Source: a virus
Length of the DNA stretch: 64,000 nt
IMG/VR virus record: IMGVR_UViG_3300043410_000542
Location: 1-64,000 of that record
Direction: 5' to 3' (one strand)
Positions 5,877-56,827 of this stretch are shown piece by piece (the stretch's first letter is position 1; each line of letters begins with the position of its first letter). Position numbers and translations under genes: made by a program. A model generated the notes under the pieces. The model did no database searches. It worked only from the letters and a program-made list of their open reading frames with translations, and had not been told where the DNA came from.

Positions 5877-6170
5877 ATGAGTGAACTAGTAGTAATAAAC
5901 GGAATAATACAACACAAACACGCATACATGGTGTCAGGCGATTCGATTGTATTTCACACTGCACCTCCCAACCGTTCTGATGTTAGTATTCTCATGGATG
6001 ACACTAGATATGAATACATAGGAGACGGTACTACGTTCGTATTTCAAGGAACACCTTCAGGTAGAATGAAATTTAGAAAGTTCATGGAAGAAGTGTACGA
6101 GAAGAAAGATGACCCGACAGTCAAAGACGCATTAGAGAAATTGAAAATAGTAATGGAGTTAGTAAAGTAA
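5877..6170 (+). CDS. hypothetical protein with tail-fibre-like beta-repeat motifs
   Basis: VINGIIQ..YMVSGDSIVFHTAP and GDGTTFVF; ATG just after the upstream stop. Confidence 0.65.
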   Translation: MSELVVINGIIQHKHAYMVSGDSIVFHTAPPNRSDVSILMDDTRYEYIGDGTTFVFQGTPSGRMKFRKFMEEVYEKKDDPTVKDALEKLKIVMELVK

Positions 6171-6727
6171 TGGCAGATATAATGATTGACATTGAGAGTT
6201 TGGATACAGGTCCAGACTGCGTGATACTAACAATCGGTGCAGTATTGTTCGACCCTAAAGGTCAAGGAATCATCGACAAGTTAGAACTTAGACCTACGAT
6301 TGAAGAACAAACAGATGTGTTCAATCGCACAATCAATCCAGATACATTGCGCTGGTGGGGTGAACAATCAGAAGCCGCACAAGAAGAAGCACTAGGTGAC
6401 AGAGACAGAGTATCATTTAAAGAATGCATGGATACATTGTACAAATGGTGCTGGAAGTATAACAACGGCAAAGTATGGTCGAATGGTGCATCATTTGACG
6501 TTGTGGTTATGGAGTCAGCATGGCGCAATCACAATCAGATGCCACCGTGGAACTTCTGGAACATTAGAGATACTAGAACCATCTACGATATCTGCGGCGT
6601 AAGTCTCAAAGACGGTGGACATTCCACTAGCCACAAGGCTGTAGAAGATGCTGAACGTCAAGCCATTGTCGTACAGAAAGCATACATGAAATTAATCAAA
6701 GCAGAATTGGTAGCAGCACCACGATGA
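6170..6727 (+). CDS. DEDDh 3'-5' exonuclease (DnaQ superfamily)
   Basis: ExoI MIDIESL, ExoII WSNGASFDV, ExoIII HKAVEDA. Confidence 0.9.
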   Translation: MADIMIDIESLDTGPDCVILTIGAVLFDPKGQGIIDKLELRPTIEEQTDVFNRTINPDTLRWWGEQSEAAQEEALGDRDRVSFKECMDTLYKWCWKYNNGKVWSNGASFDVVVMESAWRNHNQMPPWNFWNIRDTRTIYDICGVSLKDGGHSTSHKAVEDAERQAIVVQKAYMKLIKAELVAAPR

Positions 6728-7296
6728 AATTCAATTCAGATATTGACATTGACTTCGGTAACAGGGATGATATCTTAAAACATATCAATCATATCCCTGC
6801 TGCCATGCGTAATAACACACTGAGAAAACATGCGACTGGTATCTATGTAACTGAGATTCCTAGGGATGCATTACACGACATGGCTAACATTGACTATGTG
6901 GTAGCAGAGAAGCGTGGCTATGTCAAACTAGACTTGTTAAATGTTCACGTTTATTCTCAGGTCAAAGATGAAACACATCTAGCTGAATTGATGAATCGTG
7001 AGCCTGATTGGGAAAAGCTAAAAGAAAAGAAGTTTGTGGAACAATTGATTCATTTAGCAAATCACTATCAGAGTATTAGAAAGATGCCTGAACCCATTGA
7101 TAGTATTCCTAGACTAGCAATGTTTCTTGCTGTGATTCGACCGGCAAAGAAGCATTTGATCGGCTTGCCCTGGAAAGAAGTCGCTAAAACTGTGTGGGAT
7201 AAAGATGATACAGGGTATACTTTTAAGAAAAGTCACTCTGTTAGTTATGCACATTTAGTTGCTGTGCATATGAACTTGCTTAGTTCATCCTCTTGA
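6724..7296 (+). CDS. DNA polymerase III alpha (DnaE)-like catalytic fragment, miniaturised
   Basis: SDIDIDF, KHATGIYV, GYVKLDLL, IRPAK and GYTFKKSHSVSYA occur in DnaE order. Confidence 0.85.
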   Translation: MKFNSDIDIDFGNRDDILKHINHIPAAMRNNTLRKHATGIYVTEIPRDALHDMANIDYVVAEKRGYVKLDLLNVHVYSQVKDETHLAELMNREPDWEKLKEKKFVEQLIHLANHYQSIRKMPEPIDSIPRLAMFLAVIRPAKKHLIGLPWKEVAKTVWDKDDTGYTFKKSHSVSYAHLVAVHMNLLSSSS

Positions 7297-7660
7297 CAAG
7301 CGTAATCGACTTTCGTTTACTCTTACGCTTTGCTAACTCTAGCATACTACACGCAGGACCGTGAACTACAGTTAGACTTTTGTTATTGAACGTTCTTAGA
7401 TAGGGTCTAAAGATAGCCCATTCTTCTTTTAAGAACATATTGATGGGCACTAGTCTATTGGATTCCCACCACCACGTGTCCCCTAATTCTAAGAATCTAT
7501 CACGCAATACCTGGTCTAGGATCGCACCATAGTCATATATAGTGGTAACAATGTCGTCCCTGTTTTGAACGATCCCTACATAGTCTTGCCCAGCATATGA
7601 GCAGACAGTTATGAAGGGATGATTTTTGCTAAGTCGTGCGAAGAATTCGTTGTGAATCAT
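7280..7660 (-). CDS. hypothetical protein
   Basis: ORF preceded by minus-strand late promoter GATAAATA at 7681-7688; start MIHNEFF. Confidence 0.7.
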   Translation of the reverse strand: MIHNEFFARLSKNHPFITVCSYAGQDYVGIVQNRDDIVTTIYDYGAILDQVLRDRFLELGDTWWWESNRLVPINMFLKEEWAIFRPYLRTFNNKSLTVVHGPACSMLELAKRKSKRKSITLVKRMN

Positions 7661-7680
7661 TATTTTAAAACGTCTAGGAA

Positions 7681-7724
7681 TATTTATCTTCGGGTAAAAC
7701 CCAATATAATATTTGTCATAAATA
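7681..7724. promoter_or_regulatory. Divergent pair of T4-type late promoters
   Basis: GATAAATA on - strand (7681-7688) and CATAAATA on + strand (7717-7724). Confidence 0.7.
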
Positions 7725-7741
7725 GAGTAAAGGACCTTCAA

Positions 7742-8494
7742 ATGCAATCTACATCAGTAACCTACTACATTCCAAGACAAACGGTTGTGTTGTATGACGG
7801 CACCTCATCTAGGAGATATCAAACCGTGTACGCTAAAAATCTAAAAATCCATAAAGGGATTGACAACCGCCTGCAGTTCCAGTTCATCAATCAGGACCAA
7901 AAAGCAGTAGACATAACAGGTAAGACTCTATCTTGTAGATTGATTAGCTATGATGGCTCTAAGATTCTATTACAGAAGGCACTTACCCCGGTGTTCCCGT
8001 TGACTGGTATCTGTCAACTAGATGTTACTATGAACGAGACATTGGAAATGGAAGCTACTATGTGCTATTACTCAATCACTATCCCTAATGGGACATTTGA
8101 GTTTCCTGTATTCGTAGATGATAACTCGGGTGGCAGAGGTGTAGTTGATGTAGTCAATAGTGTGTTACCGAAATACACAAAGTCAACCGAGTTAAATATT
8201 TTACCACACACTGATCCTAGTGATGTTCAACCTGTAACATACTTCACAGGTCAATACATAACCCAAGACTCTGACTTTTTAACATTCCAAACTGTATTAA
8301 ATAACTACGTTGGTACAATCAAAGTTCAGGGTTCTGCTACAGGTAATAACACTGAATGGTATGATTTAACTGATGAGCAAGTATACGACGGCTATACAAG
8401 CACCGACTACTTTAACGTTAGCGGGTATCATGCATACATGCAAGTAGTGTTCACAAGCACTGCGGGCACCGTAGATAAAGTTCTGGTCAGATAA
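7742..8494 (+). CDS. putative virion structural protein (beta-rich)
   Basis: Late promoter and AAGGA RBS upstream; T/S/V/Y-rich. Confidence 0.65.
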   Translation: MQSTSVTYYIPRQTVVLYDGTSSRRYQTVYAKNLKIHKGIDNRLQFQFINQDQKAVDITGKTLSCRLISYDGSKILLQKALTPVFPLTGICQLDVTMNETLEMEATMCYYSITIPNGTFEFPVFVDDNSGGRGVVDVVNSVLPKYTKSTELNILPHTDPSDVQPVTYFTGQYITQDSDFLTFQTVLNNYVGTIKVQGSATGNNTEWYDLTDEQVYDGYTSTDYFNVSGYHAYMQVVFTSTAGTVDKVLVR

Positions 8495-8507
8495 TTATCC
8501 ATCTCTG

Positions 8508-8536
8508 TTGTAAAGCGATACATATTGTGTTACACT
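8508..8536 (+). promoter_or_regulatory. sigma70-type promoter, probably leaderless primase mRNA
   Basis: TTGTAA-17nt-TACACT with extended TG; ATG 7 nt downstream; no SD. Confidence 0.6.
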
Positions 8537-8543
8537 AACACAG

Positions 8544-9524
8544 ATGTTTGATATCCTATCTTTAATTCCGGGCAAGAAAAAACAAACGAATAGTGGTTGG
8601 ACAAGTTTCAACGGCATTTGTTGTTCCCATAGAGGTCATCGCCCTGATACTAGACAGCGGGGTGGTGTCAGATTTGAAGGGCCTAATAACTGGGTAATGC
8701 ATTGCTTCAATTGTGGCTTTACATGTAGCTTTGTATTAGGCAAAACCATCAACGGAAAGACAAGAGACTTTCTCGTATGGTGCGGAGTTGATATTCAGCA
8801 AGTACAACGATGGAGTTTAGAAAGTTTACAACACAAAGACTTACTAGACTTCACACATGAACGAAAGAAGCGTACTAACATTAAGTTCAAAACAAAAGAA
8901 CTTCCTGACAGTGAACCGCTTGACATTAATAACTACAAACATTTACCCGCTATTACCTACCTAGAGAATAGAGGCATACATTATGATAGTTATCCATTCG
9001 TTGTAACTCCCGATGATAAAGGTCGTAACAGCAACAGAGTTATCATACCATATTTCTACAACAACAGAGTTGTAGGTAATACCAGTAGATTCTTAGATAA
9101 CAGAATCCCGAAATATTTGAATGACCAACAACCAGGCTACGTTTTCAATATCGATGCACAGAAACCAGAATGGCAAATCTGTATCGTCACTGAAGGCATA
9201 TTTGATGCATTGAGCATTAATGGTGTGGCTGTCATGCACGATGACATTAGCCCAGAGCAAGTAGAGTTGTTAGCGACATTAAACAAACGAATTATCGTAG
9301 TTCCCGATTTCGATAAGACAGGCATGAACATGATTGACCGTGCTTTAGAATTGGGTTACTCGGTAAGTTTACCAGAATGGCATCCAGGAGTAAAGGATGT
9401 CAATGATGCAGTCGTGCGATATGGTAAGCTACCTACTGTACTTTCTATACTAGAAAATGCTACAATGAGTAAAATAAAACTAGAATTACAAAGGAAGAAA
9501 ATTGGCAAAAGAAACGGATTCTAA
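8544..9524 (+). CDS. DNA primase (T4 gp61/DnaG type)
   Basis: N-terminal Zn finger (CC..H..HCFNC); TOPRIM TEGIFDA, PDFD, KDVND. Confidence 0.9.
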   Translation: MFDILSLIPGKKKQTNSGWTSFNGICCSHRGHRPDTRQRGGVRFEGPNNWVMHCFNCGFTCSFVLGKTINGKTRDFLVWCGVDIQQVQRWSLESLQHKDLLDFTHERKKRTNIKFKTKELPDSEPLDINNYKHLPAITYLENRGIHYDSYPFVVTPDDKGRNSNRVIIPYFYNNRVVGNTSRFLDNRIPKYLNDQQPGYVFNIDAQKPEWQICIVTEGIFDALSINGVAVMHDDISPEQVELLATLNKRIIVVPDFDKTGMNMIDRALELGYSVSLPEWHPGVKDVNDAVVRYGKLPTVLSILENATMSKIKLELQRKKIGKRNGF

Positions 9525-10935
9525 ACAGATAGAATACACAGCAGACGTACAGAAGTTATTTTTAAGAATGATGTTGAGTAACCCTGAGTTGTACACTCGG
9601 GTTATGAACATTATGAACACTGAGAACTTTGACAAGTCACTTAGACCAGTGGCTGAGTTTTATAAAGAACACACAGACAATTACAAAGTTCTACCAGACG
9701 TAGAACAAATTAAAGCGATGACTGGGGTTGAGATTGAACTCATCCCTGAGTTGAATGACGGACACCTTGAATGGTTCTTGGATGCATTTGAAGCGTTTAC
9801 TAAACGACAAGAACTAGAACGAGCAATTCTTAAAGCAGCCGATATGCTTGAGAAGGGTGACTTTGCACCTGTTGAAAAACTAATCAAAGACGCAGTTCAA
9901 ATCAGTCTACAAAAAGATATGGGTACTGATTACTTTGCTGACCCTAAGTATCGTATCAACAAATACTTCAATGCAGGCGGACAAGTTTCTACAGGCTGGC
10001 CGCAGATGGACAAACTATTATATGGTGGTTTCAGTCGCGGTGAATTGAATATCTTTGCAGGTGGCTCAGGTTCAGGTAAGTCTCTTGTTATGATGAACTT
10101 GGCGTTAAACTGGTTAGCAGTAGGTATGAGTGGTGTTTATATCTCATTAGAACTTTCAGAAGAACTAACTTCATTGCGTACTGATGCGATGTTGACCAGC
10201 ATGAGTACAAGAGATATTCGTAAAAACATTGACGATGCACACTTGAAGATTAAGATGATGGAAAAGAAAGCAGGTCAGTATCGTGTTAAAGCGATGCCTG
10301 CGCAAAGTAATGTCAATGCGATTCGTTCATACTTAAAAGAAGTACAGATTCAAACAGGGATTAGAATTGACTTTGTGATGATTGACTATTTGGATCTTGT
10401 TATGCCGGTGTCAGTTAAAGTTAATCCAAACGACCAGTTCATCAAAGACAAGTATGTATCAGAAGAACTGCGTAACTTGGCAAAAGAATTAGGGATTTTG
10501 ATGGTAACCGCGTCACAGTTGAATCGCTCAGCCGTTGAAGAAATCGAATTCGACCACAGTCACATCGCAGGTGGTATCTCAAAGATTAACACAGCAGACA
10601 ACGTGTTTGGTATCTTTACAAGTCGTTCAATGAGAGAGCGCGGTAAGTATCAGATTCAGTGTATGAAATCACGTAGTTCGACGGGTGTAGGTCAGAAAGT
10701 TGACTTGGAATACAACATTGAGACTATGCGTATTACAGACGAGGATCCAGATGGATATGCTGACCAACAAGCAAAATATAAGCCAGCACCGAGTCCGAGC
10801 GATATTATGAGCAAATTGAAGCCTCAGGCGACAGTTGTAGGCGAACAAATACACATCGAACCGGAAACAAAGCGGGTAGTTGCAGACGTTCAGGGTAGCA
10901 AACTTAAAGCAATGCTGAACAACCTCAAAAATTGA
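9502..10935 (+). CDS. replicative DNA helicase (gp41/DnaB family)
   Basis: Walker A GGSGSGKS, ISLEL, IDYLDL, TASQLNR, KSRSS; TTG start. Confidence 0.95.
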   Translation: MAKETDSKQIEYTADVQKLFLRMMLSNPELYTRVMNIMNTENFDKSLRPVAEFYKEHTDNYKVLPDVEQIKAMTGVEIELIPELNDGHLEWFLDAFEAFTKRQELERAILKAADMLEKGDFAPVEKLIKDAVQISLQKDMGTDYFADPKYRINKYFNAGGQVSTGWPQMDKLLYGGFSRGELNIFAGGSGSGKSLVMMNLALNWLAVGMSGVYISLELSEELTSLRTDAMLTSMSTRDIRKNIDDAHLKIKMMEKKAGQYRVKAMPAQSNVNAIRSYLKEVQIQTGIRIDFVMIDYLDLVMPVSVKVNPNDQFIKDKYVSEELRNLAKELGILMVTASQLNRSAVEEIEFDHSHIAGGISKINTADNVFGIFTSRSMRERGKYQIQCMKSRSSTGVGQKVDLEYNIETMRITDEDPDGYADQQAKYKPAPSPSDIMSKLKPQATVVGEQIHIEPETKRVVADVQGSKLKAMLNNLKN

Positions 10936-11213: not shown

Positions 11214-11895
11214 GTTCATCAACGAAGGTTGGTTTGACGATGCAAAAGCTAAAGTAAAAACTTACAATAGAAGGCTTAATACTGACGCAAAACGTGCCGC
11301 GAACGCAATTAAAACATCTAAAATAGGACAAGCGGCAACTACAGGGGCAAACGCAGTGAAGGCTGCTGTTGCCTCTCCATACGTTCAACGTCCAGCAAGT
11401 GCATTAGCACGTGGTTTAGGTAAACTCGGTATGGGCGGGGATAAATTCTTGGGCTTCAATAATCCATTGAAGAACAGCACAAGAGCCGCAATGAGTACTG
11501 AGATTTTTATGAAGAATTTCTTAGGGTCATTGGCAGCTACAGAAAAAAGACAAGCACAACTTAATCAACCATTCGACTTGGGTACATTTGCCACCCAGTA
11601 TATGAAAAAACAGAACTGGGAACCAGGTAACTTTACACAACAGTTGCAAACAGCAGTTACAAGCCGTGACAAAAAAGCACTTGCAAGAGTTATGGATCAG
11701 ATCGGTGCTGCAAACACAGTAGACCCTGCCGCACAAGGTCCAGAAATCAACATGACACCGGGTGCGTATGATAACAAATACGGACAAATGGGTAATTTGA
11801 TGGCTCAAGCCGCAACCGCTGCGGCACAACCTAGACAGAGTTTAGCTCAGAAGATGGCATCTAAAGGTATGACACCACAAGGCGTTAGAAGATGA
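11200..11895 (+). CDS. putative internal head protein
   Basis: N-terminus MRANEFINEG resembles T4 capsid-targeting propeptides; A/K/Q-rich. Confidence 0.6.
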   Translation: MRANEFINEGWFDDAKAKVKTYNRRLNTDAKRAANAIKTSKIGQAATTGANAVKAAVASPYVQRPASALARGLGKLGMGGDKFLGFNNPLKNSTRAAMSTEIFMKNFLGSLAATEKRQAQLNQPFDLGTFATQYMKKQNWEPGNFTQQLQTAVTSRDKKALARVMDQIGAANTVDPAAQGPEINMTPGAYDNKYGQMGNLMAQAATAAAQPRQSLAQKMASKGMTPQGVRR

Positions 11896-13046
11896 ATTTC
11901 GCAGAATCATTAAGAGCATTGGCTGATAAGATATTCGCTATTAACGAAGCGGATGAATTAACAAAAGCTCACGTTGAACATCCTGAAGATTTAGTATTTC
12001 ATTCAGGTAGTAGAGGCGCCGCACAAGGCTTACAAGCGATTGTTGACACAGCCGCAAATCCTGGCGCAATTACTATCAAGTGGGACGGGTATCCTGCATT
12101 AGTATTTGGTCGTGGTGTAGACGGACAGTTTGTTGTGTGTGACAAGCATATGTTCAACAAGAAAGACGGTTCAGGTCGTGTGACGAGCCCACAAGCATTC
12201 GCAGAATACGATAGAGCAAGAGGAATTCAACGTGGTGAACTAGAGCACATCATTGCTAGAATCTGGCCTGGTCTAGAAAAGTCATTCAATGGCTCTGGTT
12301 TCTACTGGGGTGATTTGTTGTTTCATCAGCCGTTAAAAGATGAAGGTGGTTTGTATAGATTCAAAGCAAACCCAAATGGTATCACTTACACAGTTGAAAC
12401 TAACAGTGAGATGGGTAAGTTGATCGGTGGCAAAGTGGGTGGCATTGCAGTCCATCAGTATATTCCACCAAGTGCTATGAACGTACAACAGTCTACATTA
12501 CTAAACGGTAGCATTGGTCAATTAAAGAATAACAGTAACGTAGCAATCATTCCAGCTAAGATGCCAATCGTACCTAAACTAAAGATTACTAAAGCTGATG
12601 TTGCTAATGTACAGAAAGCAATCAAGCAATATGGCGCAGCAGCAGATGCATGGTTGTCACAACCACCAGCTGGTGTCAAAACAGTATTCCCGTTAATGTG
12701 TACAGTATACATCAACCGAAAGATTATGTCTGGTAACTTGAATAACTTAGTAGGTGACTTCTATGAGTTCTTCAAAACAAGACCAATGAGTGATAGCATT
12801 CGTGCTAAACTAACTCAACACTTCCAACAAAACGAAGCAGGCATTCAGGGTGCATTCGCTATTTGGATTGCACTATACAACTTAAAAATGAAAGTTGTAC
12901 CTCAATTAGACAAAGCCGCAGAAGAAAGTCCTGTTAAGGGATACTTACAAGATGGCACACAAAGTCAAGAAGGCTTTGTAAGTCATGGCATTAAGCTAGT
13001 CAATCGCATGGGCTTCAGTCGTCAAAACTTTGCCGGTAGAGCATAA
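11892..13046 (+). CDS. ligase-superfamily nucleotidyltransferase-like protein (RNA ligase-like), putatively virion-packaged
   Basis: HVEHPED, IKWDGYPA (KxDG), EGFV, KLVNR; N-terminal ..AINE propeptide. Confidence 0.6.
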   Translation: MNFAESLRALADKIFAINEADELTKAHVEHPEDLVFHSGSRGAAQGLQAIVDTAANPGAITIKWDGYPALVFGRGVDGQFVVCDKHMFNKKDGSGRVTSPQAFAEYDRARGIQRGELEHIIARIWPGLEKSFNGSGFYWGDLLFHQPLKDEGGLYRFKANPNGITYTVETNSEMGKLIGGKVGGIAVHQYIPPSAMNVQQSTLLNGSIGQLKNNSNVAIIPAKMPIVPKLKITKADVANVQKAIKQYGAAADAWLSQPPAGVKTVFPLMCTVYINRKIMSGNLNNLVGDFYEFFKTRPMSDSIRAKLTQHFQQNEAGIQGAFAIWIALYNLKMKVVPQLDKAAEESPVKGYLQDGTQSQEGFVSHGIKLVNRMGFSRQNFAGRA

Positions 13047-19831: not shown

Positions 19832-21190
19832 TTAGATGACGATAGAATAATCTCCTGCTTCATAGAAGCCTTCGTATGACTTTACCCATACTCTATCAGC
19901 GTAACGATATTGAATACCGCTAGTTAAGTTTCTTACGTATTCAACTGAAGAAACCTCAGCACTATTGAATGCAACAGTCCAAGCACCGCCGTTGAATTCA
20001 ATGATATCGTTTGCACTAGCATTTAGATGACCCCATGCACCAGTCACATCAGATATGATATCTTCAACTAAGAGATAACGTTGTCCGTTTGATGATTCAG
20101 GTAGTCCTTGACCAGGACCTTTTGTGTGAGGATTGATAACACTGTCTACTGGATCTAGTGTATTCTGAGGTAGTGTGTCTGGATCAATAGTATATACTAA
20201 CAAGCGGTCATCGGTTGGATTGAAGTTGATAGTACCTACAATATCCGTATCCATGTAAGGATTTTGTAACCAAATCTGACTGACGCCCGGTTTGACGGTG
20301 CCGTATACGTTCAGTACACTAGACCAAAATACAGAAGTATCAGGGTTAGTCGGATCTTCGGGTGTATTATTACTCGGAGATAGAACTTCTGTAGCCGGTA
20401 AGATTTGTAGACTGTTGCCAATCAACAACAACTTATACCCGTATGGCGTAATCTTTTGTCTAGTACCTAACAACAAGTCATCATCTTGCATATCTGTGAT
20501 AGCATTGCCTTGGAAGATACTTGCGATAATCTTGTGAATGACACCGAGTTTTCTAACCTTAGCTGAACTACTGATCCAGATAGGCATGTAGAACTTCCAA
20601 CTCATAATGTCAACTGCATTGCCTGTACCGGTAGGGATACTGCGTGAACTAAATGTGATACCATCTTGATATACGACTGATAGTGATGTCCAATCAATGA
20701 AGTTGTCAGTGGATTGAATCTCCATAGCAGGGTTAAACAATACACCAATCTGTTCAATCAACTCTAGTTTTTGCTGATAGTTAGTAGTCCAGAAATCAAC
20801 CGTGATACTTAGTTTGTATGGAACAGGCATGATACGTTCAATCGTAAATGCTTGTCCTTGTGTTTGTTCATATGTTTGTGAATCAGAATTGTAAGTGCGT
20901 TGACGAACATTCAACTTGTCAACGAAGTACGGGTCTTGAGTTCTAGTCTGTTCGTAATCTAAACCTGTAATGTAATAAGTGATTAAAGGTGCGCTAGGTA
21001 AACTGCTAGGACTGTTATTAGCAATGACAGTCTGCGCCATGCGACTTGAATCACCGTACTGGACAGGAACTCTAACAAGAATATCATTACCTGCAGGATC
21101 TTTGCCTTTAGTAACTTGCCAATCACTAAAGATACGTGCGAATTGAATTAAGAACCTACGTATCTGGTTATCGTAAAAGTGTTGTGCCAT
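19832..21190 (-). CDS. tail sheath stabiliser/terminator (T4 gp15-like)
   Basis: FYDNQIRRFLIQF, VPVQYG, PVPYKLSI, LELIEQIGVLFNP. Confidence 0.8.
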   Translation of the reverse strand: MAQHFYDNQIRRFLIQFARIFSDWQVTKGKDPAGNDILVRVPVQYGDSSRMAQTVIANNSPSSLPSAPLITYYITGLDYEQTRTQDPYFVDKLNVRQRTYNSDSQTYEQTQGQAFTIERIMPVPYKLSITVDFWTTNYQQKLELIEQIGVLFNPAMEIQSTDNFIDWTSLSVVYQDGITFSSRSIPTGTGNAVDIMSWKFYMPIWISSSAKVRKLGVIHKIIASIFQGNAITDMQDDDLLLGTRQKITPYGYKLLLIGNSLQILPATEVLSPSNNTPEDPTNPDTSVFWSSVLNVYGTVKPGVSQIWLQNPYMDTDIVGTINFNPTDDRLLVYTIDPDTLPQNTLDPVDSVINPHTKGPGQGLPESSNGQRYLLVEDIISDVTGAWGHLNASANDIIEFNGGAWTVAFNSAEVSSVEYVRNLTSGIQYRYADRVWVKSYEGFYEAGDYSIVI

Positions 21191-48155: not shown

Positions 48156-48662
48156 ATGCGTAATGACAAATACAGCCAGCAAATTTTAGACGAGAACGAC
48201 CTAATCAGTGCGTACTTGACTGATCCAGGTAGAGATTTACATGATGCATTTGTTTCGGATGAAATCAAATTCGATGACATCCTAGAAGTACAAAACAAAC
48301 CCAAACTAATTCAATACATAGACCCGAAACTCTCTGTAGCAGAATTTGACAAGCAGAAACAATCTAACTGGTTTATGCCGGACGAGTACAAGCAATTTGA
48401 CATTGCTAAGTGGGTTCTAGACCAATGCAAAACAGATGTAGAGTTACAACGAGTTGGAGACGAACTAATCAAATTCCAAGAACGTGACTTGTTTCCATTA
48501 CTACAGTACACAAAATACCTAGTTGATACAATGCGTAAGCATAATGTACTTTGGGGAGTAGGTCGTGGTAGTAGCGTAGCCAGTTATGTATTGTTTTTGA
48601 TAGGGGTACACCGTATAAATAGTTTGCATTTTGACTTGTCTATAGACGAGTTCTTAAAATAA
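48156..48662 (+). CDS. DNA polymerase III alpha (DnaE)-like N-terminal palm fragment
   Basis: RVGDEL..F..YLVD..WGVGRGSSVASYVLFLIGVHRINSLHFDLSIDEFLK matches DnaE GPGRGS.AGSLV.Y.LGIT..DP..LLFERFL. Confidence 0.85.
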   Translation: MRNDKYSQQILDENDLISAYLTDPGRDLHDAFVSDEIKFDDILEVQNKPKLIQYIDPKLSVAEFDKQKQSNWFMPDEYKQFDIAKWVLDQCKTDVELQRVGDELIKFQERDLFPLLQYTKYLVDTMRKHNVLWGVGRGSSVASYVLFLIGVHRINSLHFDLSIDEFLK

Positions 48663-48672
48663 GGAGAATAAA

Positions 48673-49020
48673 ATGGCAATACACAGATCCGCAATGGGAA
48701 AGACAGTTGATATGGCTTCCCTGTCAGGAAGAAATGAAAAAGTAAGAGCAGTCGGCAATATGAACGTCAATGCCCGTGGTGATGTATTAGACAGTCACAA
48801 TCGTGTGATTCAGGATAACACACAACGAGTTCAAGCATCTTACCGAAATACAGTGTCAGAGACACCGGCGCACTTGACACCTAGTAGACCTACAAGTACA
48901 ATTCAAGAAGATACTGTTGTCCAAGAAGTACCAGTTGAACTACCAGTTGAAGAACCGGTTGAATTGACAGCAGAAGAACAAGAATTGTTTGACGACACTG
49001 ACGAGGAAGAAACTAAGTGA
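48673..49020 (+). CDS. hypothetical protein
   Basis: AAGGAG RBS; AVGNMNVNARGD. Confidence 0.75.
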   Translation: MAIHRSAMGKTVDMASLSGRNEKVRAVGNMNVNARGDVLDSHNRVIQDNTQRVQASYRNTVSETPAHLTPSRPTSTIQEDTVVQEVPVELPVEEPVELTAEEQELFDDTDEEETK

Positions 49021-49397
49021 CCGATGAAAAGAAATTAGCATTTGAACCACACAAGTTCAATAAAAGCCAATTTAAAGCAATCAGTGACCACGTGATTGTG
49101 TGCGATATGAACTTTGAAGAACGTATCACACACAGTGGCATTGTGCTACCCAATGACGATATGAAGTCTGCGGGTATTCGCCCAAGATGGGCAAGGATTT
49201 ATGCTGTTGGCCCTGACCAGAAAGATCCTGAACTAGTTGTAGGTAAATGGATTTGGATTAGTCACGGACGATGGACACGCGGTGTTAATATCGAAGACGA
49301 AGAGGGTAAAAAGACCATACGCAGAGTAGATAATAATGATATACTACTTGCATCAGATGAACCAGTATACGACATGACATGGAGTGATAAGATATAA
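49017..49397 (+). CDS. groES: co-chaperonin GroES family
   Basis: DHVIV..ERITHSGIVLP..AVGP..VG..DILL. Confidence 0.8.
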   Translation: MTDEKKLAFEPHKFNKSQFKAISDHVIVCDMNFEERITHSGIVLPNDDMKSAGIRPRWARIYAVGPDQKDPELVVGKWIWISHGRWTRGVNIEDEEGKKTIRRVDNNDILLASDEPVYDMTWSDKI

Positions 49398-49750
49398 TGA
49401 AATGGTTTTTTAATTGGCTCTATAAGGGTCTTAAGAATGTAGAATCGGATGAGGAAGAAAGACGGGCAGATAGAGACAGTCCGCTTATTCCCCGTGTTCG
49501 TGCAGCTAGGTCACCTGGACTAAAGATTAATATGGCTGTGGGAACATCCACTCCTGAAGGTCATGTTCACCTTAATCAACAACCTCTACACTTTAAGATT
49601 TACCCAGCAACGGGCGGACACATCGTAGAATACACATTCTACAATGAAAAAAGAGATAACAATGACCAAGCACTTCACTTGATACCCAGTGAGCTTGACT
49701 TAGGCACAGAACTTGCTAAAATTATGACTTTAGAGGCATTGAAGCGATGA
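49397..49750 (+). CDS. hypothetical protein
   Basis: Translationally coupled ORF. Confidence 0.7.
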   Translation: MKWFFNWLYKGLKNVESDEEERRADRDSPLIPRVRAARSPGLKINMAVGTSTPEGHVHLNQQPLHFKIYPATGGHIVEYTFYNEKRDNNDQALHLIPSELDLGTELAKIMTLEALKR

Positions 49751-50670
49751 ACAATCAATTATGGGTAGAAAAGTATCGTCCACAATCTGTTGAAGATTAT
49801 GTGTTTGTGGATGAGCGTCAAAAGCAACAAGTTACTGGTTGGATTGAGAATGAATCAATCCCGCATCTATTGCTTTCAGGTGAACCGGGTACAGGTAAAA
49901 CAACACTAGCAAAAGTGTTGATGAAAGAACTAGGTGTAGAAGAATTCGATATCTTGGAAATCAACGCATCACGTGAAAATAGTGTTGACGTTGTTCGTAA
50001 CAAGATTGTTGGCTTTGTTCAAACTATGCCATTCGGTAAGTTCAAAGTTGTTTTGCTAGACGAAGCAGATTATTTGACTCCAGCTGGGCAGGCTGCTTTG
50101 CGTAATGATATGGAAGCATATCACATGACTGCACGTTTCATTCTAACTTGTAACTATGAGCATAGAATTATCCCTGCACTTAAGAGCAGATGCCATGAAT
50201 TCCGTATCACTAAGACTGATAAGACAGAATTTACAGCAAGAGCCGCAACAGTTTTAGTATCAGAGCAAGTTGAGTTTGATTTAGACGTGTTGGATAGCTA
50301 TGTAGATGCTACATATCCAGACTTGCGTAAGTGTTTGAATCAGCTACAAGTAAATAGTAGCACAGGTAAGTTGTTGCCACCAGTCGATTCAGGTAACGGC
50401 GAAGATGAATTGTTGTTCCAAGCAACTGAGTTGTTTAAGAATGGTAAAATCTTAGAAGGTCGTCAACAACTATTGCAATATCTAGGAATGTATCCTACAC
50501 GTTTAGAAGATATCTATCGTTGGATGTACAACAACTTAGATTTGTGGGGAGATTCTAATGAGAAGCGTGATGCTAGCATCATTATCATTAGAAATGGTCT
50601 AGCCAACTTGAGTCTCGTGGGTATTCCCGAGATTAGCTTGGCAGCAACATTAGTAGAATTAACGGGTTAA
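49747..50670 (+). CDS. clamp loader AAA+ subunit (gp44/RFC small)
   Basis: WVEKYRP, GEPGTGKTT, EINAS, LDEADYL, SRC, PDLRK. Confidence 0.95.
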   Translation: MNNQLWVEKYRPQSVEDYVFVDERQKQQVTGWIENESIPHLLLSGEPGTGKTTLAKVLMKELGVEEFDILEINASRENSVDVVRNKIVGFVQTMPFGKFKVVLLDEADYLTPAGQAALRNDMEAYHMTARFILTCNYEHRIIPALKSRCHEFRITKTDKTEFTARAATVLVSEQVEFDLDVLDSYVDATYPDLRKCLNQLQVNSSTGKLLPPVDSGNGEDELLFQATELFKNGKILEGRQQLLQYLGMYPTRLEDIYRWMYNNLDLWGDSNEKRDASIIIIRNGLANLSLVGIPEISLAATLVELTG

Positions 50671-54547: not shown

Positions 54548-56827
54548 ATGCACTCACCCGAAATCGAATCAATCATCGAACATGCGATTGGTTTAGCTAA
54601 AGAGCGTAACCATCAGTATTGTACTGTAGAGCATTTGTTACTAGCCCTAGTCACCCATGCACCGTTTAAAAAGTGCATCGAGCAGTTTGGCACTAATGTT
54701 GAGGGTCTAACAGGTGATATCAATGCATACTTAGATAGCCTCAAATCTATCGTAGTTAATGTAGACCAAGGTCAAGAAGTTGCACCGCGCAAAACTAACA
54801 GCTTGGAACGAGTAATGAACCGTTCTGTGACGCAGGTTATGTTCACTGGTCGTAAAATGATTACTACAGTTGATTTGTACTTGTCAATCTCAGCAGAAAC
54901 TAACAGTCACGCCCATTACTTCTTATTGAAGTATGGTTTCTCTAAGACAGAGTTTGTTCCCTTCTGGCAGAAGAATTACAAGAGCAATCAATCTGAAGTT
55001 AATATGAGCGAAGACCAGGCTGACGAAGTTCTGGAAGAATACACAACTAATCTTACAGCAATGGCACGTGCTGATAAGCTAGAACCAGTTATCGGTCGCA
55101 ACAAAGAAGCGGAAGACATTGTTAACGTACTCGCTAAACGTTTCAAGTCGAACGTATTGATGGTCGGCGACCCTGGTGTAGGTAAAACTGCTATTGCAGA
55201 AGGTCTAGCACAGAAGATTATCGCAAAAGATGTACCTGACTTCTTGCAGGGCCACGAATTGTACTCACTTGAAATCGGTTCATTGCTTGCTGGTTCTAAA
55301 TATCGCGGTGACTTTGAAGAAAAGGTCAAAGCTGTACTAGAAGCACTAAACACTAAGAAGAAATCTATCCTATTCATTGACGAAGCACACACAATGCAAA
55401 GTGCAGGTAGTTCAACGAATGGTTCAGTTGACTTTGCTAACATGATTAAGCCTGCATTGACTAAAGGCACAATCAAAGTTATTGCAAGCACAACTTGGGA
55501 AGAGTATTACGAGAGTTTCGAGAAGGATCGTGCGTTGATGCGCCGATTCTACAAAGTCTCAGTTGACGAACCAAGTCAAGAATCTACAGTTCGCATTTTG
55601 AAGGGCTTGTCAGCACGACTTAACGACTTCCACAGTGTTGAAATCACTGACGAAGCTATCGAAGCCGCAGTTGAAGGTGCTACTCGTTACATTCAGGATC
55701 GTAAGAACCCGGATAAGTCAATCGACTTGATTGATGCCGCGTGTGCTAAACAACGTGTAGCAGAAAACAAGGGTGCAATCATCACTAAAGAACTTGTCTA
55801 CGAACAAATTGAGAAGTACACAGGTGTTCCTGCTGATAAGTTGAGCGATGACCGCAGTGACCGCATTGTTAACTTGGAATCTAACGTTAAAGACAAGCTA
55901 TACGGTCAAGAAGAATCAGTTGACAAAGTACTTGAACGTGTCTATGTGTCATTCGCCGGTATCGGCAACGAAACTAAGCCTCTAGCAAGTTTCTTGTTCT
56001 TAGGTCCAACTGGTACAGGTAAAACTGAACTTGCTAAGTTGTTGAGTAAGAACTTAGACATGCCATTGCACAAATACGATATGTCAGAATACGGCGAGAA
56101 GTTCTCTGTATCTAGCTTGATCGGTGCTCCCCCCGGATATGTAGGTTACGGTGAAGGTAACTTAGGTGGTGGTCGTTTGATTAACGACTTGAGCAAGAAC
56201 CCTCATGCTATCTTGTTGTTTGATGAAGTTGAAAAAGCTCACCCTGATATCTTCAACATCTTCTTGCAGTTGTTGGATGAAGGTCGTATCACTGGTAGTA
56301 ACGGTAAAGTCGTTAACGCTAAGAACACTATTGTTATTATGACTAGTAACTTGGGTTCTGCTGACAGTGAAAAGAACGTCATTGGCTTCGGTTCACAAGA
56401 AAAAGTCGGTGAAGATGACAAAGCATTGAAAGAGTTCTTTAAGCCAGAATTTAGAAACCGTATTGACTTGATTTGTAAGTTCAACAAGTTGGACATGCTT
56501 GCTATTAAGAAGATTGTGGTTAAGTTTGCAGATGATTTGAAGAAGTCATTGAAGTCTGTACACGATATCACATTGAATCTAAGTGAGCCAGTTATTGAAT
56601 ACTTGGCAGAAAAAGGTTACGATCCTAAGATGGGTGCTCGTCCGTTGTCTCGTAAGATTGATGAATTGATTCGGGTGCCTCTATCTAAGAAAATCTTGTT
56701 TGAGCGAATCAAAAGTGCTACAATCAACGTACACATTGGACTCTCTAATGAGATTGAGTTTGATGTAGTACAGAAATTAGTAGCGAAAGTAGGAGAAGAT
56801 GGCATTATCGAAGTCACATCCGAATAA
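54548..56827 (+). CDS. clpA: ClpA-like AAA+ unfoldase
   Basis: Clp N-domain; two Walker A motifs (GDPGVGKT, GPTGTGKT); KYRGDFE; GAPPGYVG; IGF loop; no ClpB middle domain. Confidence 0.9.
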   Translation: MHSPEIESIIEHAIGLAKERNHQYCTVEHLLLALVTHAPFKKCIEQFGTNVEGLTGDINAYLDSLKSIVVNVDQGQEVAPRKTNSLERVMNRSVTQVMFTGRKMITTVDLYLSISAETNSHAHYFLLKYGFSKTEFVPFWQKNYKSNQSEVNMSEDQADEVLEEYTTNLTAMARADKLEPVIGRNKEAEDIVNVLAKRFKSNVLMVGDPGVGKTAIAEGLAQKIIAKDVPDFLQGHELYSLEIGSLLAGSKYRGDFEEKVKAVLEALNTKKKSILFIDEAHTMQSAGSSTNGSVDFANMIKPALTKGTIKVIASTTWEEYYESFEKDRALMRRFYKVSVDEPSQESTVRILKGLSARLNDFHSVEITDEAIEAAVEGATRYIQDRKNPDKSIDLIDAACAKQRVAENKGAIITKELVYEQIEKYTGVPADKLSDDRSDRIVNLESNVKDKLYGQEESVDKVLERVYVSFAGIGNETKPLASFLFLGPTGTGKTELAKLLSKNLDMPLHKYDMSEYGEKFSVSSLIGAPPGYVGYGEGNLGGGRLINDLSKNPHAILLFDEVEKAHPDIFNIFLQLLDEGRITGSNGKVVNAKNTIVIMTSNLGSADSEKNVIGFGSQEKVGEDDKALKEFFKPEFRNRIDLICKFNKLDMLAIKKIVVKFADDLKKSLKSVHDITLNLSEPVIEYLAEKGYDPKMGARPLSRKIDELIRVPLSKKILFERIKSATINVHIGLSNEIEFDVVQKLVAKVGEDGIIEVTSE

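What the first reader, a model, noticed from the sequence alone, without database searches (positions are those of the whole stretch)
6724..7296. Miniature DnaE (family C polymerase) catalytic half; its partner half lies 41 kb away
Seen: 190 aa carry DIDIDF, KHATG, KLDLL, RP and GYTFKKSH in DnaE order. Established: these correspond to the three catalytic aspartates (E. coli D401, D403, D555) and the FNKSH finger motif of an enzyme of over 1000 aa. Spacing between motifs is strongly shortened (about 25 aa between DIDIDF and HATG), and PHP, HhH and OB domains are absent. The protein starts where ORF 48156-48662 stops: canonical ..LFERFL-NPER..PDFDVDF versus ..IDEFLK-stop and MKFNSDIDIDF. Neither end has intein motifs. 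The gene is translationally coupled (ATGA) to a DEDDh exonuclease and lies near the primase and helicase. Inference: a two-subunit minimal Pol III-like nucleotidyltransferase of about 360 aa with a separate proofreading subunit, perhaps for primer extension or repair rather than bulk replication.
Basis: partly seen in the sequence, partly recalled or inferred. Interest (0 to 1): 0.8.

Follow-up and report, generated by a model that had tools for sequence, protein, structure and literature searches.

The report
Split mini Pol III, catalytic half
This 190-codon gene of an uncultured giant phage is the metal-binding half of a two-gene, stripped-down bacterial-type DNA polymerase core that was described from sequence in 2021 and has still not been tested at the bench.

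Summary
ORF 6724-7296 (190 aa) and ORF 48156-48662 (168 aa) are the two halves of a minimal family-C (Pol III alpha/DnaE) core. AlphaFold models map without gap or overlap onto solved polymerases: the N-half onto E. coli alpha 278-393, the C-half onto 397-779. The catalytic and nucleotide-binding residues are invariant in the family alignments. The C-half is under purifying selection (median dN/dS 0.16). Both halves sit on the same contig in 8 of 10 long related contigs and in 4 of 4 cultured phages.

It is not new. Iyer et al. 2021 (PMC7824862) described this split minimal Pol III alpha of group 2.2 jumbo phages, and this scan has met it many times. I found no bench test.

- One natural single-chain 375-aa form exists.
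- The cut falls at the rigid/mobile boundary of the palm.
- The compaction comes from two deletions, in the thumb and index-finger regions.
- The exonuclease coupling is clade-specific (33 of 62 loci), so it is not a defining partner.

A family B polymerase accompanies the enzyme in all five complete or near-complete relatives tested. This window comes from an 86-kb fragment and shows none.

The parts
6724..7296 (+). C-terminal (metal- and template-binding) half of the split minimal Pol III alpha: D6, D8, D70 catalytic aspartates, K68, R139-P140, Y165/F167/K168/H171 loop
   Evidence: phrog_11778 at E 3.1e-55. Invariant D6 D8 K68 D70 R139 P140 in 82 sequences. Profile against E. coli alpha at E 4.4e-6. 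AF2 pLDDT 96.1. VIA Z 9.6 to Taq alpha 458-836 and Z 8.4 to E. coli 397-779; the top 15 rows are all C-family and the next row has Z 2.9. Median dN/dS 0.16.
48156..48662 (+). N-terminal (nucleotide-binding, GS-motif) half of the same enzyme. Residues 69-168 form the rigid N-terminal part of the palm. Residues 1-68 are an unassigned extra segment.
   Evidence: phrog_11127 at E 2.4e-40 and PF07733 at E 4.1e-7. phmmer aligns 122-167 to Taq alpha 409-454. GVGRGSS is invariant in 42 sequences, and the rows shown (one in two) all end ...EF[LI]K. AF2 pLDDT 86.5. VIA Z 9.7-11.0 to E. coli alpha 278-393; the top 16 rows are all C-family and the next row has Z 2.6.
6170..6727 (+). DEDDh 3'-5' exonuclease (Rv2179c-like/DexA-like), translationally coupled (ATGA) to the C-half. 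A clade-specific neighbour, not a defining part.
   Evidence: PF16473 at E 3.4e-34 and phrog_255 at E 2.5e-44. ATGA overlap. Upstream of the C-half in 33 of 62 related loci, 16 of them adjacent. PA5oct's upstream gene is unrelated. 684 phage records carry relatives. Median dN/dS 0.128.
7280..7747 (-). Conserved convergent small ORF of unknown function. Its 3' end overlaps the C-half 3' end by 17 bases.
   Evidence: phrog_11637 at E 1.5e-30, no Pfam family. Found next to the C-half in 79 of 80 related loci. A minus-strand ORF sits at the same position in 121Q, PA5oct, Atu_ph07 and Slickus01; homology of those four was not tested.
8544..10935 (+). Primase (8544-9524) and DnaB-type helicase (9502-10935), the conserved downstream neighbours of the C-half
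   Evidence: Toprim_2 at E 1e-5 and DnaB_C at E 2.5e-21. Primase in 59 of 80 and helicase in 52 of 80 related loci, many of which are cut short. Same order in four cultured phages.
48673..50670 (+). Conserved downstream neighbours of the N-half: small ORF, Cpn10/GroES-like ORF (49017-49397), small ORF, clamp-loader ATPase (49747-50670)
   Evidence: PF00166 at E 3.4e-5. phrog_168 clamp loader at E 7.1e-74. The Cpn10-like ORF is downstream of the N-half in 8 of 8 IMG/VR loci and 3 of 3 cultured phages. The clamp loader is seen in 3 of 8 short loci and in 3 of 3 cultured phages.

Best explanation
Shown by homology and predicted structure: the 190-aa protein is one of two subunits of the split minimal Pol III alpha of T4-like (group 2.2) jumbo phages. 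The 168-aa N-half supplies the rigid N-terminal part of the palm with the GS motif (R137-G138-S139, matching E. coli R362-G363-S364), which holds the triphosphate of the incoming nucleotide. The C-half supplies the two palm strands with the three metal-binding aspartates (D6, D8, D70, matching D401, D403, D555), the primer-phosphate lysine (K68, matching K553), the RP pair next to the templating base (matching R639-P640), and the helix-loop-helix that roofs the incoming nucleotide (Y165, F167, H171, matching Y754, F756, H760).

Inferred: the two chains associate non-covalently to form one composite active site, so neither is active alone. The heterodimer is a template-directed DNA polymerase. 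Because it lacks the thumb, the index, ring and little fingers, a clamp-binding motif, and the PHP and OB domains, I expect it to be distributive and to work beside the phage's family B replicase on short stretches such as primer extension, gap filling or repair, not on bulk synthesis. Each half is encoded in a replisome gene cluster, so I expect it to act at the replication fork.
For: Family identity:
- PHROG, Pfam and profile matches.
- The published description by Iyer et al. 2021, PMC7824862, sections 3.4.1 and 3.5 (passages).

Seamless complement on four solved enzymes:
- E. coli 278-393 | 397-779
- Taq 293-455 | 458-836
- M. tuberculosis DnaE1 306-413 | 417-807
- PolC 825-965 | 968-1294

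A natural single-chain form:
- P0276 (375 aa) has a continuous PF07733 match across the seam at E 4.8e-16.
- Its GRGS-to-DxD spacing is 45 aa, against 42 in two cellular DnaE.

Conservation:
- D6 D8 K68 D70 R139 P140 are invariant in 82 C-halves, and GVGRGSS is invariant in 42 N-halves.
- C-half median dN/dS is 0.16 over 128 pairs, range 0.029-0.373.
- At least 7436 C-half and 7991 N-half clusters occur in metagenomes.

Co-occurrence:
- 5 of 5 contigs of at least 135 kb and 3 of 5 contigs of 62-125 kb carry both halves. The two misses have under 27 kb of sequence downstream.
- 4 of 4 cultured phages carry both halves.
- 96 against 93 INPHARED records.

A second polymerase: PF00136 is present in the 97%-complete relative G001 and in PA5oct, 121Q, Atu_ph07 and Slickus01.

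Replisome synteny.

Residue roles in E. coli alpha come from bioRxiv 10.64898/2026.06.29.735100 (passages).
Against: - No assay of any family member was found.
- I could not co-fold the two chains or fold the fused form with a full alignment, so association and the composite site are inferred.
- The thumb and index finger, which in E. coli alpha make most of the DNA contacts and close on the dNTP, are missing.
- The dNTP-contacting R390 of E. coli is an invariant Glu (E165) here, and N757 is a Lys (K168). Substrate handling may therefore differ.
- The fused form rests on one 2415-bp contig.
- N-half dN/dS was uninformative: dS was saturated in 35 of 36 pairs.
- No family B polymerase lies in this 86-kb, roughly 25%-complete fragment.
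- VIA Z scores of 8-12 are moderate, although they stand well clear of the next unrelated rows (Z 2.6-2.9).
Confidence: 0.7

Rival explanations
1. The heterodimer is a Pol-beta-fold nucleotidyltransferase that is no longer a template-directed DNA polymerase. It could be a template-independent terminal transferase, an enzyme that adds modified nucleotides, or an enzyme acting on RNA or on small molecules.
For: The thumb and index finger are lost. The index-finger basic residues that contact the dNTP in E. coli (R709, R710, K714, K715) have no counterpart: 10 profile positions stand in for E. coli 642-738. R390 is replaced by the invariant E165, and N757 by K168. Weak Foldseek rows to MenT-type nucleotidyltransferase toxins (probability 0.08-0.14) show only the shared fold.
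Against: Residues that touch the templating base (R139-P140) and stack on the incoming base and sugar (Y165, F167, H171) are retained and conserved. Both genes sit in primase-helicase and clamp-loader clusters. The best structural matches over the whole length are all C-family polymerases.
Confidence: 0.15
2. One reading: the exonuclease 6170-6727 is the dedicated proofreading subunit of the mini-polymerase, analogous to epsilon of Pol III.
For: ATGA coupling in the window. The exonuclease lies upstream on the same strand in 33 of 62 related loci, and is adjacent (gap of 21 bases or less) in 16 of them. It is under purifying selection (median dN/dS 0.128).
Against: It is absent from the available upstream sequence in 29 of 62 loci. 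It is not adjacent in the three jumbo relatives looked at: no similarity in PA5oct, and no exonuclease annotation immediately upstream in Atu_ph07 or 121Q. Its family is seven times more widespread than the mini-polymerase (684 against 96 phage records) and includes T4-type dexA. The PHP domain, which binds epsilon in E. coli, is missing. At most this is a partnership within one clade.
Confidence: 0.15
3. The two ORFs are decaying remnants of a once full-length phage DnaE and have no function.
For: They are small and far apart, and the C-half alone has no Pfam hit.
Against: All catalytic positions are invariant. All 81 C-half reading frames and all 9 N-half reading frames are intact, with dN far below dS. 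Thousands of homologue clusters share the same ends. The AF2 models are confident. Spacing and gene order are conserved over very divergent phages.
Confidence: 0.02
4. The halves are joined into one chain after translation, by a split intein as in cyanobacterial DnaE or by another splicing route.
For: Split-intein DnaE exists in cyanobacteria (listing; details recalled).
Against: The last N-half residue (168) aligns to E. coli 393, and the first C-half residue aligns to 397. That leaves no extra residues for intein fragments. The N-half rows shown stop at ...EF[LI]K, and C-halves start 1-10 residues before the DxD.
Confidence: 0.01

Closest known systems
Split minimal DNA polymerase III alpha of group 2.2 jumbo phages (Iyer, Anantharaman, Krishnan, Burroughs, Aravind 2021, Viruses 13:63, PMC7824862; passages read)
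   Same: Two stand-alone proteins from distant genes. The N-terminal unit binds the NTP, and the C-terminal unit binds Mg2+ and the template. No other Pol III domains are present. It is found beside a family B polymerase in T4-like jumbo phages. The window's proteins are 35-54% identical to those of PA5oct, Atu_ph07, 121Q/RaK2-like phages and SCTP-2.
   Different: This copy comes from an uncultured phage fragment and differs only in detail. In its clade the C-half is coupled to a DEDDh exonuclease. My calls also show the family in a 141-kb phage, below the usual 200-kb jumbo threshold as I recall it (Slickus01), and as one single-chain form (P0276). I did not see either point in the passages I read.
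Bacterial replicative C-family polymerases: Pol III alpha/DnaE (E. coli 2HNH, Taq 2HPI/3E0D, M. tuberculosis DnaE1 5LEW) and PolC (3F2C)
   Same: The Pol-beta-like palm with the GS motif, three aspartates, K553, the R639-P640 pair and the Y754...H760 loop. The predicted fold superposes over all 190 residues of the C-half and 100 of the N-half.
   Different: About 290 residues stand in for E. coli 278-779. It has no PHP domain, no ring or little finger, no clamp-binding motif and no OB or tau-binding parts. The regions that hold the thumb (between DxD and HxxG) and the index finger (between RP and FxKSH) are shortened by about 80-90 residues each. The chain is cut at 393|397. R390 is replaced by Glu.
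Bacillus subtilis DnaE as primer-extension polymerase that hands off to PolC (review PMC13220808, section 10, passage read)
   Same: A C-family polymerase that works beside the main replicase and next to primase and helicase, adding a few dNMPs to RNA primers. This is a functional model for what a second, non-processive polymerase in a replisome can do.
   Different: B. subtilis DnaE is a full-length single chain. No hand-off or primer extension has been shown for the phage enzyme, so the likeness is a hypothesis only.
Cyanobacterial split DnaE with split intein
   Same: DnaE is encoded by two separate genes.
   Different: There the halves carry intein fragments and are ligated. Here no intein residues exist, and the cut lies inside the palm just before the catalytic DxD.
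Rv2179c-like / T4 DexA-like DEDDh exonucleases (PF16473)
   Same: The upstream gene matches over its full length at E 3.4e-34. RB49 and other T4-type dexA genes are among its tblastn hits.
   Different: The link to a polymerase gene is seen only in part of this phage clade.

Membership tests
Split minimal Pol III alpha of group 2.2 jumbo phages (Iyer et al. 2021) | Two stand-alone proteins from distant genes: N-terminal NTP-binding unit and C-terminal Mg2+/template-binding unit | tested here: met
   The ORFs are 41.4 kb apart on the same strand. The N-half has the GS motif and the C-half has the DxD, KxD, RP and FKKSH motifs. They map onto E. coli alpha 278-393 and 397-779.
Split minimal Pol III alpha of group 2.2 jumbo phages (Iyer et al. 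2021) | Sequence homology to the phage family itself | tested here: met
   phrog_11778 at E 3.1e-55 and phrog_11127 at E 2.4e-40. tblastn to PA5oct, Atu_ph07, 121Q, GAP32, CBB, SCTP-2 and others at 34-54% identity.
Split minimal Pol III alpha of group 2.2 jumbo phages (Iyer et al. 2021) | No other Pol III alpha domains (PHP, OB and so on) | tested here: met
   The proteins are 168 and 190 aa long. The only Pfam hit is PF07733, on the N-half. The structural matches end at E. coli 779. N-half residues 1-68 are unassigned.
Split minimal Pol III alpha of group 2.2 jumbo phages (Iyer et al. 2021) | Accompanied by a family B DNA polymerase in the same genome | tested here: inconclusive
   There is no PF00136 match in the 86,257-base, roughly 25%-complete record. 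It is present in G001 (97% complete), G004, PA5oct, 121Q, Atu_ph07 and Slickus01. It is absent from three half-complete contigs.
C-family DNA polymerases (DnaE/PolC) | Pol-beta-like palm with GS motif and three catalytic aspartates | tested here: met
   GVGRGSS and D6/D8/D70 are invariant. They align to R362-S364 and D401/D403/D555 (residue roles).
C-family DNA polymerases (DnaE/PolC) | N-terminal PHP domain | tested here: not met
   The N-half match to DnaE starts at E. coli 275-280. There is no PHP Pfam hit.
C-family DNA polymerases (DnaE/PolC) | Thumb and full fingers domain (index, middle, ring, little) | tested here: not met
   DxD to HxxG is 30 aa against 111-123, and RP to FxKSH is 29 aa against 111-119. 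Ten profile positions replace E. coli 642-738. The chain ends at the equivalent of residue 779. The finger sub-domain borders are recalled from Lamers et al. 2006, which I did not read.
C-family DNA polymerases (DnaE/PolC) | Single polypeptide; clamp-binding motif and OB domain | tested here: not met
   There are two genes. Nothing lies beyond the equivalent of E. coli 779.
C-family DNA polymerases (DnaE/PolC) | Template-directed DNA polymerase activity | not testable with these tools
   No assay was found in four literature searches.
Pol III epsilon-type dedicated proofreading partner | DEDDh exonuclease conserved together with the polymerase | tested here: not met
   The DEDDh motifs are present. 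Linkage is seen in only 33 of 62 loci. In cultured relatives, PA5oct's upstream gene is unrelated, and none is annotated immediately upstream in Atu_ph07 or 121Q. The family is found in 684 phage records, most of them without the mini-polymerase.
Split-intein DnaE | Intein fragments at the two junction ends | tested here: not met
   N-half residue 168 aligns to E. coli 393 and C-half residue 1 aligns to 397. There are no spare residues.

The most novel reading that the evidence does not exclude
The two chains form an obligate composite-active-site polymerase that serves as the phage replisome's primer-extension enzyme. It would be a minimal analogue of eukaryotic Pol alpha or B. subtilis DnaE: it takes RNA primers from the neighbouring primase-helicase and hands short RNA-DNA primers to the clamp-bound family B replicase. 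The cut falls exactly at the hinge between the rigid palm (E. coli 271-393) and its mobile catalytic part. The halves are also placed in two different replisome operons, the primase-helicase cluster and the clamp-loader cluster. Together these features could let the phage control activity through assembly of the two chains. If so, a working DNA polymerase needs only about 290 residues of palm plus one finger element.
Probability: 0.2. Interest if true: 0.7.

Novelty: new member of a known kind. Interest (0 to 1): 0.3.

Why it matters
The family would be the smallest known C-family polymerase core, and the only one I know of whose active site is built from two non-spliced chains. Iyer et al. 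proposed it as a model of the ancestral Pol III module. It is very abundant in metagenomes (over 7,400 clusters for each half) and conserved in therapeutic-candidate jumbo phages such as PA5oct and the RaK2/121Q group. Even so, I found no bench test of it.

This particular copy adds nothing categorically new. The session does supply some testable detail:
- a residue-level seam (393|397) that coincides with a known hinge;
- two discrete deletions, in the thumb and index-finger regions;
- substitutions at two dNTP-contacting positions;
- one natural fused form that could serve as a ready-made single-chain construct for biochemistry.

Tried and rejected
- A megablast of window 6000-10000 against phage records found nothing.
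- phmmer of the single C-half against PDB sequences found nothing. Only the 82-sequence profile reached DnaE.
- I looked for an adjacent N-half or exonuclease in Alishewanella phage Slickus01. The two upstream ORFs are unrelated, and the N-half lies 11 kb away.
- Fused forms. The 'longer' search found none, which is weak evidence by the tool's own note. The representative search gave one, P0276. Its DNA could not be placed: it was not in IMG/VR, the JGI metagenome scan returned only two full-length cellular DnaE genes, and the cluster look-up shows a singleton on one 2415-bp contig. The fused form is therefore a lead, not a settled fact. A chimeric assembly seems unlikely to me because the linker has near-canonical length. 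In a quick tree its C-part groups with two stand-alone C-halves (SH-aLRT 96). The tree has no real root (midpoint only, for drawing), so the direction of change (re-fusion or retention) is open.
- I planned to fold the fused protein with an alignment of both half-families. MAFFT always stacked N-halves onto C-halves: 0 of 33 N-half rows were correct whenever 8 or more C-halves were present, and when only 3 were present those 3 were misaligned. I folded the two window halves separately instead. No co-fold was possible with these tools.
- dN/dS for the N-half: dS was saturated in 35 of 36 pairs and only one pair was usable (0.27), so it is uninformative. My attempt at dN/dS for the convergent ORF failed on a length filter of my own and I did not repeat it.
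- The protein atlas look-ups for the convergent ORF and for N-half residues 1-70 gave only scores of 0.82-0.84, which is chance level by the tool's note. I make no claim about the fold of N-half 1-68.
- Sequencing runs: no RNA holder was listed, and I laid no reads. This says nothing about expression.
- I did not enumerate the overlap of the 96 and 93 INPHARED records one by one. Genus tallies agree except Klebsiella, 11 against 10. At E 0.05 the N-half also picks up full-length phage DnaE genes.
- Supplements of papers were not opened. The supplementary tables of Iyer et al. 2021 may list accessions, and perhaps fused or non-jumbo members, that I could not see.
- Lamers et al. 2006 (finger sub-domain borders), the Taq catalytic residue numbers and Sanders et al. 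2010 are recalled and were not read.
Full report
**What is there.** The window is the first 64 kb of an 86,257-base IMG/VR virus record that CheckV rates about 25% complete. The ORF at 6724-7296 (+, 190 aa) carries DIDIDF (6-11), KHATG (35-39), KLDLL (68-72), IRPA (138-141) and GYTFKKSH (164-171). Its ATG overlaps the stop of ORF 6170-6727 as ATGA. ORF 48156-48662 (+, 168 aa) carries GVGRGSS (134-140) and ends IDEFLK-stop.

**Identity.**
- The C-half has no Pfam family. It matches phrog_11778 'DNA polymerase' at E 3.1e-55, and the N-half matches phrog_11127 at E 2.4e-40.
- The N-half also matches PF07733 (Pol III alpha NTPase domain, profile positions 25-94 of 260, E 4.1e-7). It aligns to Taq Pol III alpha 409-454, ending at ...LFERFL.
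- tblastn finds the C-half in 96 phage records and the N-half in 93. Both sets are the PA5oct, Atu_ph07, SCTP-2 and RaK2/121Q/GAP32/CBB-type jumbo myoviruses, at 28-54% identity, with matching genus tallies except Klebsiella, 11 against 10.

**Prior description.** Iyer et al. 2021 (PMC7824862; passages of sections 3.2, 3.4.1 and 3.5 and the figure 3 legend read) describe exactly this. [quoted passage not shown] It sits beside a family B polymerase, and they suggest a role in synthesis of one strand or in repair. I reached the paper, before opening this scan's earlier notes. Those notes show the same family and the same verdict in many other genomes.

**Residue-level mapping.**
- An alignment of 82 diverse C-halves (30-59% identical to the window's) has D6, D8, K68, D70, R139 and P140 invariant. 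D10, H36, G39, K168 and H171 are at least 90% conserved.
- Its profile hits E. coli alpha (2hnh) at E 4.4e-6. Positions 54-140 align to residues 538-641 and positions 151-180 to residues 739-769. This places K68/D70 on K553/D555, R139-P140 on R639-P640, and Y165, F167, K168, K169, S170, H171 on Y754, F756, N757, K758, S759, H760.
- An alignment of 42 N-halves has GVGRGSS invariant, and the rows displayed end at ...EF[LI]K.
- With the fused protein as a bridge, the profile runs continuously through the seam on Taq alpha 385-481 and E. coli 321-416. From that alignment D6/D8/D10 correspond to the PDxDxD of DnaE, that is E. coli D401/D403/D405, and N-half E165 sits where E. coli has R390.

**Predicted structures.**
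- The C-half folds with mean pLDDT 96.1 and pTM 0.88. The N-half folds with mean pLDDT 86.5, and its weakest blocks (73) are residues 61-70 and 131-140, the second of which holds the GS motif.
- Foldseek's top 11 PDB rows for the C-half are all Pol III alpha chains, with best E 1.1e-3.
- VIA-align gives the C-half Z 9.6 (186 residues, rmsd 3.8 Å) to Taq alpha 458-836, Z 9.4 to PolC 968-1294, Z 9.3 to M. tuberculosis DnaE1 417-807 and Z 8.4 to E. coli 397-779. The top 15 rows are all C-family polymerases, and the next row has Z 2.9.
- N-half residues 69-168 give Z 11.0-11.9 to PolC-type chains 822-964, Z 11.6 to DnaE1 306-413, Z 9.7-11.0 to E. coli 278-393 and Z 7.5-10.1 to Taq 293-455. The top 16 rows are all C-family, and the next row has Z 2.6.
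- In each of four enzymes the N-half ends two to four residues before the C-half begins: 393|397, 455|458, 413|417 and 965|968. There is no room for intein fragments.
- N-half residues 1-68 are matched by nothing I tried. They are also the part that cultured-phage homologues do not share.

**What was removed.**
- Motif spacing in the window against two cellular DnaE fetched:

| Interval | Window | Cellular DnaE |
|---|---|---|
| GRGS to ERFL | 29 | 29 |
| DxD to HxxG | 30 | 111-123 |
| HxxG to KxD | 32 | 43-44 |
| KxD to RP | 70 | 80-81 |
| RP to FxKSH | 29 | 111-119 |

- Two discrete deletions of about 80-90 residues therefore explain most of the compaction.
- By the borders quoted in a 2026 preprint on E. 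coli Pol III (10.64898/2026.06.29.735100, passages read), the large palm sub-domain is 271-432 and the small one 511-560. The first deletion thus covers the thumb.
- The second deletion removes the stretch that carries the index-finger residues R709, R710, K714 and K715, which contact the dNTP.
- The chain ends at the equivalent of residue 779, so the ring and little fingers, the clamp-binding motif and the OB domain are absent. The names and borders of the finger sub-domains are recalled from Lamers et al. 2006, which I did not read.
- The same preprint states that residues 271-393 stay 'mainly unchanged' on DNA binding, while the rest of the palm, carrying D401 and D403, moves. The natural cut at 393|397 thus coincides with that boundary. 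This coincidence is my observation, and its meaning is inference.

**A single-chain form.**
- Among the 150 best of 366 representative hits, one protein, P0276 (375 aa), matches the C-half at its residues 190-372. Upstream it carries an N-half with the GS motif.
- Pfam PF07733 matches it continuously across the seam (residues 97-207, profile 12-121, E 4.8e-16). Its GRGS-to-DxD distance is 45 residues, against 42 in cellular DnaE.
- It is a singleton on one 2415-bp contig, and I could not fetch its DNA.
- In a quick tree, its C-part groups (SH-aLRT 96) with two stand-alone C-halves inside the radiation of split forms.
- I take it as modest 'Rosetta-stone' support that the halves work as one enzyme.

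**Conservation, selection and co-occurrence.**
- The large protein collection holds 7436 C-half clusters and at least 7991 N-half clusters, on contigs up to 364 kb.
- Among 81 C-half genes (the window plus 80 IMG/VR loci), all frames are intact. The 128 pairs with dS of 0.05-1.5 give a median dN/dS of 0.16, range 0.029-0.373.
- N-half dS is saturated in 35 of 36 pairs, so I draw nothing from it beyond nine intact frames.
- The N-half is never within 10 kb of the C-half (0 of 80 loci). It is on the same contig in 5 of 5 contigs of at least 135 kb and in 3 of 5 contigs of 62-125 kb. The two misses have less than 27 kb of sequence downstream of the C-half (coordinates).
- In 7 of these 8 contigs the halves lie 35-47 kb apart, in the same order and on the same strand as in the window (41.4 kb). 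In the 97%-complete G001 they are 237 kb apart on the linear record.
- PA5oct, 121Q, Atu_ph07 and the 141-kb Slickus01 each carry both halves as separate genes (4 of 4).

**Context.**
- Downstream of the C-half come a convergent small ORF (phrog_11637, in 79 of 80 loci), a virion protein (69 of 80), primase (59 of 80) and a DnaB-type helicase (52 of 80). Many loci are cut short. Four cultured phages show the same order.
- Downstream of the N-half come a small ORF, a Cpn10-like ORF (PF00166, E 3.4e-5) and the clamp loader. The Cpn10-like ORF is seen in 8 of 8 IMG/VR loci and 3 of 3 cultured phages. The clamp loader is seen in 3 of 8 short loci and in 3 of 3 cultured phages.
- Both halves thus sit in replisome clusters.
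- A family B polymerase (PF00136) is present in G001, G004, PA5oct, 121Q, Atu_ph07 and Slickus01. It is absent from three roughly half-complete contigs and from this fragment.

**The exonuclease.**
- ORF 6170-6727 is a full-length PF16473 (Rv2179c-like) DEDD exonuclease with an H-x4-D motif.
- Among 62 related loci with at least 2 kb of upstream sequence, 33 have it upstream on the same strand: 16 with a gap of 21 bases or less and 17 with 206-1251 bases in between. The other 29 lack it, and these are mostly the more distant C-halves at 58-64% identity.
- PA5oct's upstream gene is unrelated. The genes immediately upstream in Atu_ph07 and 121Q are annotated as hypothetical or virion proteins. 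121Q annotates a 'DNA polymerase exonuclease subunit' about 4 kb upstream, which I did not compare.
- Relatives of this exonuclease occur in 684 phage records, including T4-type dexA.
- The coupling is real here, but it is a feature of one clade and not of the enzyme.

**Mechanism, with what is shown and what is inferred.**
- Shown by homology and prediction: the two proteins are complementary parts of one Pol-beta-like C-family palm plus one finger element, with every catalytic and nucleotide- or template-contacting residue of that part conserved.
- Inferred: they associate non-covalently into a composite active site and catalyse template-directed DNA synthesis. Without a thumb, index finger or clamp contact, they would act distributively beside the family B replicase.
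- A precedent for such a division of labour is B. subtilis DnaE, which adds a few dNMPs to RNA primers and hands them to PolC (PMC13220808, section 10, passage read).
- Points against a classical polymerase: the loss of the DNA-gripping thumb and the dNTP-closing index finger, and the changes R390 to E165 and N757 to K168. I therefore keep a non-templated or altered-substrate nucleotidyltransferase as the main rival, at 0.15.

**Literature on function.** Four full-text searches found no biochemical or genetic study of the phage mini-enzyme. A 2025 genome paper on phage Sharanji merely lists a 'DNA polymerase III DnaE' gene (passage read).

**Verdict.** This is a real, conserved and correctly read feature. 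It is a new member of a family described in 2021 and re-found many times by this scan. I score interest at 0.3, mainly because the family is still untested and because of the small additions made here: the fused form, the coincidence with the hinge, the two deletions and the altered dNTP contacts.

Noticed in passing
window 7280-7747 (-): A small ORF of unknown function (phrog_11637, E 1.5e-30; no Pfam family) converges on the C-half, and the 3' ends overlap by 17 bases. It is the most constant neighbour: 79 of 80 related loci, and a minus-strand ORF at the same place in four cultured phages. Whether it is a partner of the mini-polymerase is open. The atlas look-up gave only chance-level scores.
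   Followed up: partly
window 48673-50670 (+): The N-half heads a conserved row of genes: small ORF, Cpn10/GroES-like ORF (PF00166, E 3.4e-5), small ORF and clamp-loader ATPase. The row is kept in IMG/VR relatives and in PA5oct, Atu_ph07 and 121Q.
   Followed up: partly
protein P0276 (375 aa, one 2415-bp ENA contig): A natural single-chain fusion of N-half and C-half with a near-canonical linker. It groups with stand-alone C-halves in a tree. Its genomic context could not be fetched.
   Followed up: partly
The family is therefore not confined to genomes over 200 kb.
   Followed up: partly
protein P0299 (5774 aa): A 5774-residue protein matches the C-half in 19 separate stretches (E 6e-27). The best stretch covers only query residues 34-63. 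It may be a repeat protein or an artefact. I did not look at it.
   Followed up: no
protein P0368 (233 aa): The first 108 residues are a C-half N-terminus. The rest is unrelated sequence, possibly a chimera, a frameshift or a domain swap. I did not examine it.
   Followed up: no
window 58100-60793 (+): An 897-aa ORF with only a cytidylyltransferase-like N-terminus (PF01467, E 1.4e-7) and no PHROG family. Earlier notes of this scan read it as a protease-cut polyprotein. It is not the family B polymerase.
   Followed up: no
window 54548-56827 (+): A 759-aa ATP-dependent protease homologue with two AAA+ regions (phrog_4871, E 3.7e-238).
   Followed up: no
window 11892-13046 (+) and 19832-21190 (-): A DUF6267 protein (E 3.3e-37) and a T4 gp15-like tail-sheath stabiliser (E 1.4e-20). 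Both are consistent with a T4-like myovirus.
   Followed up: no
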